Of a stretch of DNA of 64,000 bases, positions 48,705 to 51,700 are shown in pieces; position 1 is the first letter of the stretch; every line of letters begins with the position of its first letter. The notes below the pieces were generated by a model. The model searched no databases. It saw only the letters and a list, made by a program, of their open reading frames with translations, and was not told the DNA's origin. Both the position numbers and the translations under genes were made by a program. Source of the DNA: Candidatus Aenigmatarchaeota archaeon (GTDB lineage: Archaea; Aenigmatarchaeota; Aenigmatarchaeia; QMZP01; QMZT01); NCBI GenBank assembly GCA_043808015.1, contig JAZDFI010000008.1, positions 13,271-77,270 of the forward strand, given 5' to 3'.

Positions 48705-51700
48705 CTACGTTGTGTGGTGGATGGTTTGGTTCGAGGGCCGAAGAAGGACGTGGCAAGCTGCGATATGCCGGGGGTAGACGCAAGCAGTCTTTGAACTCCG
48801 GATCTCTCAATGAGACTTCTTAACTTCGGTTGTTGGCCTTCGGGTCATCGGTGACGCCCTGAATTGAAACATCTTAGTAGGGGCAGGAAAAGAGAACAAT
48901 AGTTATTCCCTTAGTAGAGGCGATTGAAAAGGGAAGAGGACAAACCGAATCTTCTGGTGTAAGCCAGGAGAGATGTGGGGTTCGGACCTGTGCTCATCCT
49001 AACTTCTAAGTCCGAAGTGATCTGGAAAGATCCACGGCAAAGGGTGATAGTCCCGTAGGAGGACAGAAGAAGGTTGATAGCGGGTATCCAGAGTACCAAT
49101 GGTCGAAGATCCATTGGGAATACGGGAGCCAGTAACTCCTAATCCTAAATACACCTCGAGTCCGATAGCGCACAAGTACGGTGACGGAAAAATGAAAAGT
49201 ATCCTTAATCGGAGATTAAAAGAGCCTGAAACCATGCAACTATAGGTAGACATTGCTTCTGCTTTGCAGGAGTTTTGTCGCCCGTGCGGAAACACGCGTC
49301 AAGGAGTTTATTTTTGTGGCGAGGGTAATTCAAGTACCCATAGCGAAAGCGAGAACTGCGCAGCGGCTTCGTGCCGTCAGGCAGTCAGGTTTGAAAGAGC
49401 CTACAGTCACAAGGATAAGACCTGAAGCTAGTCGATCTAGCCCTTGGTAGGGTGAAGTCTGGCGAAAGCCAGATGGAGGCCCGGTAGAGATGCTGAGATT
49501 CAAATCGCTCACGTAACCTGGGGCTAGGAGTGAAATGCTAATCGAGATTAGCGATAGCTGGTTCCTCTCGAAATATGCCTCAGCATAGCCTGGTCGGAGA
49601 TGGATGGCGGGGTATAGATACTGATTGGGCAACCAAGGACCGAAAGGTCCAGTTGTCCTGTCAAACTCGGAATCTACCATCATCGCAGAAGACCGGAGTG
49701 GGAGCGCCGGGGTAAGCTCGGTGTTCGAAAGGGCGAGAACCCAGCCTAAAATTAAGGTCCCTAAATTCAAGCTAAGTGATAAAAAGCGTCTTCAACCTTA
49801 TACAATAGGGAAGTTGGCTCAGAAGCAGCCACCTTTTAAAGAGTGCGTAATAGCTCACCTATCTAGGTTGTGGGCCTTGAAAATGGACGGGACTAAGCTT
49901 GGTACCGATATTTTAGATTCCTAAAAGGAATATGGTAGAGAGGTGTCCTGCTAGGGCAGAAGTTCTCTCGTAAGAGGGAATGGACCTTGCAGGAATAAGA
50001 ATCTTGATGATAGTAGCAGCAATAGTGAAGTGAGACACTTCACCACCTAAAGGGCAAGGGTTCCTCAGCAACGTTCGTCGACTGAGGGTTAGTCGGTCCT
50101 AAGGCAAGCCCCAATTGGAACTTGCCGAAAGGGAAGCAGGTTAATATTCCTGCACCATGAGAATACGAGTGGCGACACAAGTTCATTTCCTGACGCTTCT
50201 GGATAAATCGATCATTTCGGTGATTAACCGGTTAAACCTGTGGAGTACCGTAATGGTGAGAAACAGGCCAAGCCGGCAATAGCTGACGTATGTCAGTTCG
50301 GTTGACTTCAGGAGCCCGTGAAAAGGGAAATGGAATGGATTTTTCATGTCCGTACCAAGAACCGTTACTGGTGCCCCTCGCTGAGAAGGCGAAGGTGTAA
50401 TAGGAAAATTCAGGTCAAGGAATTCGGCAAAATCGCCCTGTACCTTTGGTATAAGGGGTGCCTAATCTTCTGGCTCAGCCAGAACGATTAGGTCTCAGTA
50501 ACTAGTGGGTTGCGACTGTTTAACAAAAACGTAGGGGGCTGCTAGGTGGAAACGCTTTGTATAGCTCTTGAGGCCTGCCCAGTGCCGGTGTGTTAAACTG
50601 GCTAAAACCAGCCAAGCCCCGGTAAACGGCGGCGGTAACTCTGACCGTCTTAAGGTAGCGTAATCCCTTGTCGATTAATTGTCGACCTGCATGAATGGCT
50701 TAACGACATCCCAACTGTCTTGATCTGAAGCCTAGCGAACTTAGTTGTCCAGCGAATATCCTGGAGTCCTTCAGCGGGACGAGAAGACCCCATAGAGCTT
50801 TACTGCAGTCTGTTGTTGTAGTATGCTGATGGTCGCATAGCGTAAGTGGGAGCATCGCACTCAAGTCTTCGGGTTTGAGGAAGGCGTCAATGTAACACCA
50901 CTCCACCGTCAACATATTGCTTACCTTTAGGGGGACAGCAATTGATGGGCAGTTTGGCTGGGGCGGTACGCCTCTGATAAAGGATCAGAGGCGCCCTATG
51001 GTCGGCTCATTCCGGTCAGAAATCGGAAGCAGAGTGTAAGGGCAAAAGCCGGCCTGATAGGATTCTGCAAGGCAAAGAATCCTAACGCGAAAGCGTGGCC
51101 TAGCGATCCGCTGTGTCTCTATTAGCTGAGAGCCAGCTCTGTCAGAAAAGTTACCTTGGGGGTAATGGAGTCGTGGCGCGTGAGAGTCCATAACTCATTT
51201 CTCGTTCTCGATAAGTCTGAACAAAAAACGATACATACCTTGTGTATGTTAAAGCTTTTTGTCAGGACAAGCAGAAAGCAGAATATATAATCATCTGTTG
51301 GCTGTTGAGTCACACGTATCTATGCCCATTCATTGGGCTGCAAAGGTGCGTGTGATGATGAAAAATCGAGAAGTGAGAGGTCAAATCGACCGCGCTCGTT
51401 GCTTCTCCGCCGTCGGCTCGGCTCTTCCTGGACGTGCAGCAGCGTCCAAGGGTGGAGGTGTTCACTCATTAAAGAGTCACGCTAGCTGGGTTAAATACGG
51501 TGCGAGCCAGTATGGTCTATATCTGCTGAAGGTGTTGGTTACCTGAGGGTAGAATGCAATTAGTACGAAAGGAACACTGCGTTGTGGCCTCTGGTGTATC
51601 GGTTGTGTCTGCATTGCCGAGTAGCTACGCCGCTGAGGATAAAGGCTGAAAGCATCTAAGCCTGAAGCCTCTCCCGAAAATAGGTAACCGTTCATCAAAC

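What the first reader, a model, noticed from the sequence alone, without database searches (positions are those of the whole stretch)
51562..51573. Sarcin-ricin loop reads AGUACGAAAGGA instead of the universal AGUACGAGAGGA
At 51569 an A replaces the G equivalent to E. coli G2661, turning the GAGA tetraloop into GAAA. The SRL is among the most conserved rRNA sequences, and G2661 contacts translational GTPases. As I recall, substitutions there alter accuracy and EF-Tu dependence in E. coli. Together with the PTC and C1400 changes, this indicates an unusually drifted or co-adapted translation apparatus.
Basis: partly seen in the sequence, partly recalled or inferred. Interest (0 to 1): 0.6.

Follow-up and report, generated by a model that had tools for sequence, protein, structure and literature searches.

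The report
Natural G-to-A variant in sarcin-ricin loop
The ribosomal RNA of this small uncultured archaeon (Aenigmatarchaeota) really does carry an A where almost all life has a G in the factor-binding sarcin-ricin loop, but the same change is fixed in over 100 other prokaryotic species and in human mitochondria, so it is a tolerated lineage trait rather than something unique.

Summary
Window 51562-51573 reads AGTACGAAAGGA inside a full-length archaeal 23S rRNA gene (48693-51828), and 51569 is an A at the position of E. coli G2661.

It is not an error or a pseudogene. A sister genome (Ca. Aenigmatarchaeota MAG, Lake Pavin) and at least 13 other contigs of the same clade share the A. These include contigs that look RNA-derived: the intron is removed and the rRNA ends are joined.

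A scan of 185,579 species genomes found 111 genuine 23S genes with A2661 and none with C or U. They include every cultured Nanoarchaeota hit, many Aenigmatarchaeota and Woesearchaeota, Altiarchaeum, several Thermoproteota lineages, and the bacterial Aminicenantes and WOR-3/TA06. The human mitochondrial loop is also GAAA.

The change keeps the GNRA tetraloop, and the flanking helix covaries strongly. Published E. coli ribosomes carrying A2660C/G2661A support near-normal growth.

Best reading: a lineage-fixed, structure-preserving, largely tolerated substitution. Here it sits in an rRNA that also deviates at other "universal" sites (peptidyl-transferase centre, C1400U). Co-adaptation of the archaeal elongation factors could not be tested. 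Interest is modest.

The parts
48693..51828 (+). Large-subunit (23S) rRNA gene, archaeal type
   Evidence: Rfam RF02540, 2477.5 bits, model 1-2987 of 2987, not truncated. Close relatives yield contigs that look RNA-derived.
51552..51584 (+). Helix 95: an 8-bp stem (51553-51560 paired with 51576-51583) enclosing the 15-nt sarcin-ricin loop
   Evidence: cmscan structure line. Across 74 distinct A2661 sequences the stem is 94.4% paired, and all 8 pairs show compensatory double changes.
51562..51573 (+). Sarcin-ricin loop 12-mer AGUACGAAAGGA (E. coli 2654-2665). The bulged-G motif and the C-G closing pair are intact. The tetraloop is GAAA.
   Evidence: Sequence read directly and alignment to the Rfam consensus.
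51569..51569 (+). A at the position of E. coli G2661 (third base of the GNRA tetraloop)
   Evidence: The same base is seen in L024 and in all contigs of the clade.
51193..51385 (+). 193-nt intron in the loop of helix 89 of the same rRNA gene. This is context: its removal marks the contigs inferred to be RNA-derived.
   Evidence: cmscan shows a ~195-nt insertion. Contigs L115, L122, L137 and L201 join 51192 directly to 51386, restoring the consensus GAGUCCAUAUCGACC. Genomic contigs L162, L215 and L116 retain the segment.
46401..47839 (+). Small-subunit (16S) rRNA gene of the same operon, with C1400U at 47719
   Evidence: Rfam RF01959, 1344 bits. TGCACACACTGCCCGTCA starts at 47710. The change is shared by L032, L215, L116, L096 and L080.

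Best explanation
The A at 51569 is a genuine, lineage-fixed G2661A transition in the sarcin-ricin loop of the functional 23S rRNA of an Aenigmatarchaeota (DPANN) archaeon.

How it most likely works. The change swaps one purine for another at the third position of a GNRA tetraloop (GAGA to GAAA). The loop fold, the sheared G2659-A2662 pair, the exposed A2660, the bulged-G motif and the backbone are all kept. The backbone groups include the A2662 phosphate and the 2661 ribose and phosphate, which position the catalytic histidine and Mg2+ of translational GTPases. What is lost is only the guanine-specific face of base 2661.

The expected consequence (inferred) is a mild change in factor binding or GTPase-activation kinetics, not a different mechanism. 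That would explain why the substitution has been fixed repeatedly and only as G to A, both in small-genome archaea with generally drifted rRNA and in a few ordinary archaeal and bacterial lineages.

Shown here: reality of the base, fixation across the clade, indirect evidence of expression in close relatives, structural conservation, and recurrence. Inferred: near-neutral or mild functional effect, and fixation by drift or weak selection.
For: (1) The base is real and sits in a full-length rRNA.
(2) It is shared by a separate sister genome and by all 14 other contigs of the clade.
(3) Contigs 97-98% identical to the window LSU (L115, L122) lack the 193-nt intron and join the 3' end to the 5' end inside the processing-stem A-runs. 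This topology is best explained by circular pre-23S RNA. They still read A, so the gene is most likely transcribed and processed, and there is no A-to-I recoding.
(4) The H95 stem covaries across 74 distinct A2661 sequences: 94.4% paired, 8 of 8 pairs with double changes, 0 of 500 shuffles reach the observed score.
(5) The scan of 185,579 species genomes, with A, C or U allowed at 2661, gave 113 hits. Of these, 111 are genuine LSU and all have A. The only C hit (L112) and one A hit (L060) are not rRNA. So a purine is retained, as GNRA requires.
(6) The 111 fall into 29 clusters at 85% identity, spread over Nanoarchaeota, Woesearchaeota, Aenigmatarchaeota, Altiarchaeota, Iainarchaeota, several Thermoproteota groups, Aminicenantes and WOR-3/TA06.
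(7) Cultured organisms with working ribosomes carry it: N. equitans L068, Nanopusillus acidilobi L027, Nanobdella aerobiophila L001.
(8) The human mitochondrial SRL (NC_012920 3115-3141, per PMC7891357) contains CCCTGTACGAAAGGACA.
(9) E. coli cells whose only ribosomes carry A2660C/G2661A grow normally at 32-42 C (cold-sensitive), with no significant effect on EF-G GTPase (PMC5829649).
(10) In A2661 Aminicenantes, EF-G keeps His20, Ile21, Asp22, His87, Arg660 and Gln664, with only Ser661Thr. EF-Tu keeps GHVDHGKTT, Arg58 and His84.
Against: No functional measurement exists for a single G2661A change in any archaeon. The E. coli data accessible here are for a double mutant, and it was cold-sensitive, so the change is not strictly neutral.

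From my own recollection, not verifiable in the library: Tapprich & Dahlberg 1990 and Melancon et al. 1992 reported that 2661 substitutions alter EF-Tu ternary-complex interaction and increase proofreading. That would argue for a real kinetic effect which may need compensation.

The archaeal elongation factors of this genome were not available. The denominator (how many of the 185,579 genomes contain an LSU) is unknown. The pattern required an intact CTGARG anchor and an otherwise canonical SRL, so the counts are lower bounds. That the circular, intron-less contigs come from RNA is inferred from their topology, since the collection gives no sample type.
Confidence: 0.78

Rival explanations
1. 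Co-adapted translation apparatus. The G2661A change alters contacts with aEF1alpha, aEF2 or aIF5B and is viable only because these factors (or uL6) carry compensating substitutions. The SRL variant would then mark a co-evolved factor-ribosome interface.
For: G2661 and A2660 interact with EF-G His20, Glu456, Arg660, Ser661 and Gln664 and with uL6 Lys175 (PMC6562825). SelB His61 contacts the 2'-OH of G2661. The A2660C/G2661A E. coli strain is cold-sensitive. The same rRNA carries many other changes at conserved sites, fixed across the clade.
Against: E. coli factors work with A2660C/G2661A ribosomes without compensation. In A2661 bacteria the EF-G and EF-Tu contact residues are unchanged apart from Ser661Thr, and position 664 (from memory) also varies among G2661 bacteria such as E. 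coli. A2661 arose in many unrelated lineages, including ones with otherwise canonical rRNA, which fits a low-cost change. Archaeal factors were not tested.
Confidence: 0.13
2. Toxin evasion. The change is selected because it removes the guanine needed by SRL-directed ribotoxins, such as sarcin/RNase-T1-type or VapC20-type nucleases that cut 3' of G2661, or GAGA-specific N-glycosidases. These would be encountered in dense host-symbiont or sediment communities.
For: Prokaryotic toxins that cut the SRL exist: VapC20 and VapC26 (PMC5175351) and SRLase1 (bioRxiv 2026.09.18.752725). Alpha-sarcin cuts between G2661 and A2662. Ricin recognition depends on the GAGA sequence. VapC20 targeted to human mitochondria, whose SRL is GAAA, did not cut the SRL but cut H91 instead (PMC7891357). 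The recurrence is exclusively G to A.
Against: There is no direct test of GAAA resistance. The mitochondrial SRL differs at other positions too, so that result is confounded. SRLase1 cuts after A2662, not after G2661. No SRL-directed toxin was identified in the window or linked to these lineages. Recurrence is equally explained by G to A being the only GNRA-preserving change.
Confidence: 0.07
3. Artefact or non-functional copy: a sequencing or assembly error, or a decaying rRNA pseudogene.
For: MAG-derived sequence. Several other conserved rRNA positions deviate and the Rfam score is lowish (2477 bits).
Against: The same base is found in a separate genome and at least 13 further contigs from different samples. 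Contigs that look RNA-derived (spliced and circularised) carry it. The match is a full-length model with strong helix covariation. The other deviations are also clade-wide. The bit score is typical of DPANN: N. equitans 2613, a Woesearchaeota genome 2457.
Confidence: 0.02

Closest known systems
Sarcin-ricin loop of Nanoarchaeum equitans 23S rRNA (AE017199) and other cultured Nanoarchaeota (Nanopusillus acidilobi, Nanobdella aerobiophila)
   Same: Identical 15-mer UAGUACGAAAGGAAC in an archaeal LSU rRNA, in DPANN organisms with small genomes (L068, L027, L001). The Rfam LSU score is similarly reduced (2613 vs 2477 bits).
   Different: Different phylum. N. equitans keeps the canonical PTC stretch ACCUCGAUGUCGGCU, whereas the window has UCUCCGCCGUCGGCU. 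The flanking H95 stem sequences differ through compensatory changes.
Human mitochondrial 16S rRNA sarcin-ricin loop (NC_012920 3115-3141)
   Same: GAAA tetraloop in ...GUACGAAAGGAC..., i.e. A at the 2661-equivalent position in a working ribosome.
   Different: Organellar ribosome with further SRL differences (CUGUACG instead of UAGUACG). Very different rRNA and dedicated mitochondrial factors. Not homologous by recent descent.
Engineered E. coli 23S rRNA position-2661 mutants (A2660C/G2661A in the delta-7 strain KT101; classical G2661C/A/U plasmid mutants)
   Same: Same nucleotide position and the same GNRA-preserving logic. They show the ribosome tolerates the change (PMC5829649).
   Different: Laboratory mutants in a bacterial ribosome. 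The accessible data are for a double mutant. The classical single-mutant phenotypes (hyperaccuracy, altered EF-Tu interaction) are from my memory and could not be read here.
Lineage-specific deviations at 'universal' rRNA positions in reduced-genome lineages (DPANN, CPR, microsporidia)
   Same: Several conserved-site changes are fixed across a clade of small-genome organisms: C1400U, PTC 2448/2452/2453, 2497-2504 and A2600C here.
   Different: A2661 itself is not confined to such lineages. It also occurs in Thermoproteota, Aminicenantes and WOR-3 with otherwise canonical sequences.

Membership tests
Archaeal large-subunit rRNA (Rfam RF02540) | Full-length match to the covariance model above the gathering score | tested here: met
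   2477.5 bits against a gathering score of 50, model 1-2987 of 2987, not truncated.
Sarcin-ricin loop (helix 95, domain VI) | Position in domain VI between H94 and H96, enclosed by a Watson-Crick stem | tested here: met
   Aligned to model positions ~2745-2760 with an 8-bp stem on either side. The stem covaries.
Sarcin-ricin loop (helix 95, domain VI) | Bulged-G / flexible-region sequence AGUA...GAA (E. coli 2654-2657 and 2663-2665) and the C2658-G2663 closing pair | tested here: met
   AGUAC-GAAA-GGA. All positions except 2661 are identical to the consensus.
Sarcin-ricin loop (helix 95, domain VI) | Invariant 12-nt sequence AGUACGAGAGGA | tested here: not met
   One difference, G2661A. The same difference occurs in 111 species genomes, so strict invariance is not a valid defining feature.
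GNRA tetraloop | G-N-R-A sequence closed by a base pair | tested here: met
   C-GAAA-G. Both GAGA and GAAA satisfy GNRA. No C or U at this position was found in any genuine LSU.
Functional (expressed) rRNA gene rather than pseudogene | Transcript detected and processed | tested here: met
   Met indirectly, for close relatives. Contigs L115 and L122 (97-98% identical) lack the intron and carry a 3'-5' junction, a topology best explained by circular pre-23S RNA. The window's own strain was not sampled, and the RNA origin of these contigs is inferred.
Archaeal rRNA intron (bulge-helix-bulge type), for the helix 89 insertion | Insertion present in the gene, precisely absent from RNA, restoring the consensus rRNA sequence | tested here: met
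   51193-51385 is absent from L115, L122, L137 and L201 and present in L162, L215 and L116. The junction restores GAGUCCAUAUCGACC.
Archaeal rRNA intron (bulge-helix-bulge type), for the helix 89 insertion | Canonical bulge-helix-bulge motif at the two splice sites | tested here: inconclusive
   The MFE fold of 51141-51420 pairs the intron ends, and a near-repeat GUGAGAG(U/G)(C)CA occurs at both junctions. I did not resolve a clean 3-4-3 BHB.
Co-adapted factor-SRL interface | Compensating substitutions at SRL-contact residues of the elongation factors | not testable with these tools
   There is no translational GTPase with the HxDxGK P-loop in the window, and the rest of the genome could not be fetched. 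A proxy in A2661 bacteria showed no change except EF-G Ser661Thr.

The most novel reading that the evidence does not exclude
G2661A is not neutral drift but a repeatedly selected change. Either it makes the SRL refractory to ribotoxins that need the guanine (sarcin/VapC20-type cleavage 3' of G2661, or GAGA-dependent depurination), or it retunes GTPase activation and accuracy together with the elongation factors. On this reading the GAAA loop would be a convergent adaptation shared by symbiotic DPANN archaea, some of their potential hosts (Zestosphaera-type Thermoproteota) and mitochondria.
Probability: 0.12. Interest if true: 0.6.

Novelty: new member of a known kind. Interest (0 to 1): 0.3.

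Why it matters
The 12-nt sarcin-ricin loop is routinely described as universally conserved (for example PMC11912913 and PMC2896532), and it is the docking and activation site for all translational GTPases.

This work shows that position 2661 is naturally A in more than 100 prokaryotic species across both domains, that it is never C or U, and that this includes culturable Nanoarchaeota. That gives a natural experiment on which part of G2661 matters: backbone and purine stacking rather than the guanine face. It also gives a cautionary note for conservation-based arguments, probes and toxin-specificity assumptions.

For this particular window the result means the finding is a clade trait, not an anomaly of one genome.

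Tried and rejected
- An exact-protein look-up of the neighbouring ProRS, to identify the source contig, found nothing. The source lineage was instead identified through the SRL scan (L024).
- ARAGORN found no tRNA in the window.
- One multi-locus Rfam call failed internally and was repeated with fewer loci.
- A search for the archaeal elongation factors found no HxDxGK P-loop ORF in the window or in the metagenome loci. There was only aIF2-gamma in L064 and EF-G/EF-Tu in the Aminicenantes loci.
- Nearest-neighbour folding cannot model the non-canonical SRL. It gave no GAAA/GAGA stability difference (-5.7 vs -5.7 kcal/mol for minimal hairpins), so the thermostability idea is unsupported. It also conflicts with the mesophilic sediment lineages.
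- Literature searches for G2661A, G2661C, SRL plus Nanoarchaeum, SRL plus DPANN and 'position 2661' found no description of the natural variant.
- Winther et al. 2013 (VapC20) and Melancon et al. 1992 are not held in the library.
- The error/pseudogene idea was rejected on independent contigs, contigs that look RNA-derived, and covariation.
- An NJ tree of the SRL region was used only to see that the G-type sequences cluster apart. It is too rough to count the number of origins.
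Full report
OBSERVATION. Window 51562-51573 on the + strand reads AGTACGAAAGGA. The window holds an archaeal rRNA operon: SSU at 46401-47839 and LSU at 48693-51828, the latter matching Rfam RF02540 at 2477.5 bits over the full model. cmscan aligns UAGUACGAAAGGAAC to the consensus UAGUACGAGAGGAAC with maximal posterior probability, and the only mismatch is the middle G. Taking 51562 as E. coli A2654, 51569 corresponds to G2661.

SOURCE AND REALITY OF THE BASE. I scanned one genome per species of GTDB (185,579 species) with CTGARGN{9,14}TAGTACGAHAGGAMC, where H allows A, C or U at 2661. This gave 113 loci.
- One locus, L024, has flanks like the window. It is JAPLVC010000006.1, a Candidatus Aenigmatarchaeota MAG from Lake Pavin sediment.
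- L024 is 99.3% identical to the window in the LSU but only 91-93% identical in the flanking DNA. The window therefore comes from a sister strain or species, and the two assemblies independently show A.
- A second scan, of JGI metagenomes, was anchored on a clade signature 50 nt upstream (GCGAGCCAGT) and left position 2661 free.
- In a rough tree, the G-type sequences that entered it (16 of the 21) form one separate cluster.
- Every contig of the window's own clade has A: L024, L032, L109, L115, L116, L122, L137, L150, L162, L164, L176, L201, L202, L215.

EVIDENCE OF EXPRESSION. Several ~3-kb contigs have a distinctive structure. They include L115 and L122 (97-98% identical to the window LSU), L137, L201 and more distant ones.
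- Window 51192 is joined directly to 51386. This removes a 193-nt insertion in the helix 89 loop and restores the consensus GAGUCCAUAUCGACC.
- The LSU 3' end (A-run 51829-51832) is joined to the 5' end (A-run 48693-48697), without the 14-bp processing stem that flanks the gene.
- Their linear break points are arbitrary.
This is what circular, spliced pre-23S rRNA looks like once assembled, and it is the known archaeal processing route. I therefore infer these contigs are RNA-derived, although the collection gives no sample type. Genomic contigs L162, L215 and L116 retain the insertion. The circular contigs still read A at 2661. So the gene is most likely transcribed and processed in close relatives, and the A is not recoded to an I/G-like base.

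STRUCTURAL CONSTRAINT. I aligned H95 from 74 distinct A2661 sequences. The 8-bp stem around the loop is 94.4% paired. All 8 pairs show compensatory double changes. None of 500 shuffles, and no slid register, comes close to the observed score. The rest of the SRL is identical to the consensus: the bulged-G motif, the C2658-G2663 closing pair, A2660 and A2662. This is a functional helix, not a decaying one.

DISTRIBUTION. Of the 113 genome hits, 111 lie in genuine LSU rRNA and all 111 have A. The single C hit (L112, a cyanobacterial contig) and one A hit (L060, Treponema) show no LSU similarity and no LSU-like flanks. Carriers include:
- every cultured or complete Nanoarchaeota genome among the hits: Nanoarchaeum equitans, Nanopusillus acidilobi, Nanobdella aerobiophila, Nanoclepta minutus and strain YN1;
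- many Aenigmatarchaeota and Woesearchaeota;
- Altiarchaeum, and an Iainarchaeota-type pair;
- at least four separate Thermoproteota groups: Zestosphaera/Desulfurococcaceae, a Sulfolobales/Desulfurococcales group, Bathyarchaeia, and another group;
- among bacteria, Aminicenantes and WOR-3/TA06.
At 85% identity of the surrounding ~650 nt, the 111 fall into 29 clusters.

The variant is rare overall: at least 111 of 185,579 species. The true denominator is smaller, because many MAGs lack rRNA, and the pattern gives a lower bound. It is nevertheless recurrent, phylogenetically coherent, and strictly G to A.

Outside prokaryotes, the human mitochondrial SRL is placed at NC_012920 3115-3141 by PMC7891357. 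That region contains CCTCCCTGTACGAAAGGACA, as shown by the widely used m.3243 primer. Mammalian mitoribosomes therefore also have a GAAA loop.

IS IT A SIGN OF A DRIFTED APPARATUS? Partly. The same operon does deviate at other highly conserved sites:
- SSU C1400U at 47719;
- PTC GGGGGUAAUGG at 51158-51168, i.e. A2448G, C2452U and A2453G;
- UCUCCGCCGUCGGCU at 51404-51418 in place of ACCUCGAUGUCGGCU, which changes the equivalents of A2497, C2499, U2500, A2503 and U2504;
- GAGCCAG at 51504-51510 in place of GAGACAG (A2600C).
These changes are clade-wide and are also present in the RNA-like contigs.

The LSU bit score (2477) is typical of DPANN: 2457 for a Woesearchaeota genome, 2576 for another Aenigmatarchaeota genome, 2613 for N. 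equitans. A2661 Thermoproteota score higher, at 2778-2878.

However, A2661 and this drift are separable in both directions. Thermoproteota, Aminicenantes, WOR-3 and N. equitans have A2661 with a canonical or near-canonical PTC stretch. The G2661 cluster from the metagenome scan has a deviant PTC stretch, ACCUCGCCGUCG....

MECHANISM.
- Established knowledge read here: the A2662 phosphate and neighbouring backbone position the catalytic His and a Mg2+ of EF-Tu and EF-G. The 2'-OH of G2661 contacts His61 of SelB. The bases A2660 and G2661 stack, and they touch EF-G His20 and a network with Glu456, Arg660, Ser661, Gln664 and uL6 Lys175 (PMC6562825; PMC5311926; PMC2586802).
- A G-to-A change keeps the GNRA fold, the stacking and all backbone groups. 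Only the guanine-specific functional groups change.
- E. coli cells whose only ribosomes carry A2660C/G2661A (a GCAA loop, still GNRA) grow normally at 32-42 C and are cold-sensitive at 30 C. Their ribosomes activate EF-G GTPase like wild type (PMC5829649).
- From memory only, and not readable here: single 2661 mutants in E. coli are viable and raise proofreading.
I therefore infer a mild kinetic or accuracy effect that is tolerated, and in small-population lineages easily fixed.

CO-ADAPTATION TEST. No translational GTPase is encoded in the window. The only ribosome-associated GTPase present is a DRG/Obg-type protein at 14036-15112. The rest of the genome could not be retrieved, so the archaeal test is open.

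As a proxy I used A2661 Aminicenantes, which happen to encode fusA and tuf directly after the 23S gene. Aligned to Thermus thermophilus EF-G, the L074 EF-G keeps His20, Ile21, Asp22, His87, the GMGELHLE motif, Arg660 and Gln664, and has only Ser661Thr. The L074 EF-Tu keeps GHVDHGKTT, the ERGITI arginine and the catalytic His. No compensation is evident there.

RIVALS.
- Error or pseudogene is excluded by the points above.
- Toxin evasion is conceivable. SRL-cutting toxins exist in prokaryotes (VapC20/26, SRLase1). Sarcin-type cleavage is 3' of G2661. Ricin needs GAGA. VapC20 sent into human mitochondria, whose SRL is GAAA, failed to cut the SRL. But nothing here tests this directly, and the exclusive G-to-A pattern is equally explained by the GNRA requirement.
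- A thermostability benefit is not supported, and many carriers are mesophilic.

COMPARISON AND NOVELTY. The closest known cases are the identical SRL of Nanoarchaeum equitans (public since its genome was published), the human mitochondrial GAAA SRL, and engineered E. coli 2661 mutants. I found no paper in the searchable library that describes the natural prokaryotic variant. The sequences are public, however, and lineage-specific changes at 'universal' rRNA sites in reduced genomes are a known phenomenon. I rate it a new member of a known kind, of modest interest (0.3). The wider pattern, recurrent and purine-only substitution across both domains, is the most useful by-product.

Noticed in passing
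window 51193-51385: A 193-nt intron sits in the loop of helix 89 of the 23S rRNA gene. It is present in genomic contigs of relatives (L162, L215, L116) and precisely absent from the ~3-kb contigs that look RNA-derived (L115, L122, L137, L201). A near-repeat GUGAGAG(U/G)(C)CA occurs at both junctions. A clean BHB motif was not resolved.
   Followed up: partly
L115, L122, L137, L201, L142, L178, L159 (junction = window 51829-51832 joined to 48693-48697): Many ~2.9-3.1-kb contigs in the metagenome collection are circular LSU rRNA. The 3' end is ligated to the 5' end, the break points are arbitrary and the intron is removed. This fits circular pre-23S rRNA assembled from metatranscriptomes, although the sample type is not given. 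A 14-bp processing stem (TTGGCGAGTTGTCC) flanks the gene in the window.
   Followed up: partly
window 51158-51168 and 51404-51418: The peptidyl-transferase-centre sequences deviate strongly. GGGGGUAAUGG replaces GGGGAUAACAG (A2448G, C2452U, A2453G). UCUCCGCCGUCGGCU replaces ACCUCGAUGUCGGCU (including the A2503C and U2504C equivalents). The second motif recurs in at least 35 loci, and other DPANN lineages carry different 2503/2504 variants (CGCUG, CGUUG, CGACG).
   Followed up: partly
window 47719 (SSU) and 47106-47118: 16S rRNA has C1400U (ACACUGCCCGUCA), shared with other Aenigmatarchaeota and Woesearchaeota loci. GGAUUAGAUAACC replaces GGAUUAGAUACCC in the 790 region, and this second change was seen only in the window.
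   Followed up: partly
window 51504-51510: GAGCCAG replaces the conserved GAGACAG (A2600C equivalent). It is shared by most Aenigmatarchaeota LSUs and was used as the clade signature for the metagenome scan. A G2661 cluster of unknown affiliation shares it.
   Followed up: partly
window 52130-52466 (+): A divergent archaeal RNase P RNA candidate lies directly downstream of the 23S gene: 56 bits, below the Rfam gathering score of 84, E = 6.9e-15 in a local search. A Woesearchaeota locus (L020) has RNase P RNA in the same position.
   Followed up: partly
window 41785-41865 and 51988-52068: An exact 81-nt direct repeat with no Rfam match. One copy lies between the 23S gene and the RNase P candidate. 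The same element is present in L024.
   Followed up: no
window 54658-54766 (+): Rfam calls a tRNA spanning 109 nt (58.7 bits), but ARAGORN finds no tRNA in the window. It is probably a tRNA with an intron at a position ARAGORN does not model.
   Followed up: no
L030, L038, L062, L063, L074 (e.g. L074 933-965, 2412-4538, 4548-5747): In A2661 Aminicenantes-type bacteria, the 23S rRNA gene is followed within ~1.5 kb by fusA (EF-G) and tuf (EF-Tu). This is an unusual linkage of the rRNA operon with the genes of the factors that contact the SRL.
   Followed up: partly
L018 (Nanoclepta minutus) and L035, L071 (Zestomicrobium, Zestosphaera): Both the symbiont Nanoclepta and Zestosphaera-type Desulfurococcaceae carry A2661, with different H95 stems, so this is not a binning mix-up. 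That Zestosphaera is the described host genus of Nanoclepta is from my memory. Hosts of the other cultured Nanoarchaeota were not among the hits. Possibly coincidence.
   Followed up: no
L067, L084, L103, L058, L092, L023, L094: Archaeal DPANN-type LSU rRNA contigs are filed in MAGs labelled Acidobacteriota, Desulfobacterales, Pseudomonadota, Methanosarcinales or Freyarchaeota. A Nanopusillaceae-type LSU sits in a MAG labelled Aenigmatarchaeota. These are likely binning contamination or mislabelling.
   Followed up: no
window 53537-56890 (-): A ribosomal-protein cluster lies downstream of the rRNA operon on the opposite strand: eS8, uS10, uS9, uL13 and L18e, with CBS-domain proteins interspersed. 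uS10 is not preceded by aEF1alpha or aEF2 as it is in many archaea.
   Followed up: no
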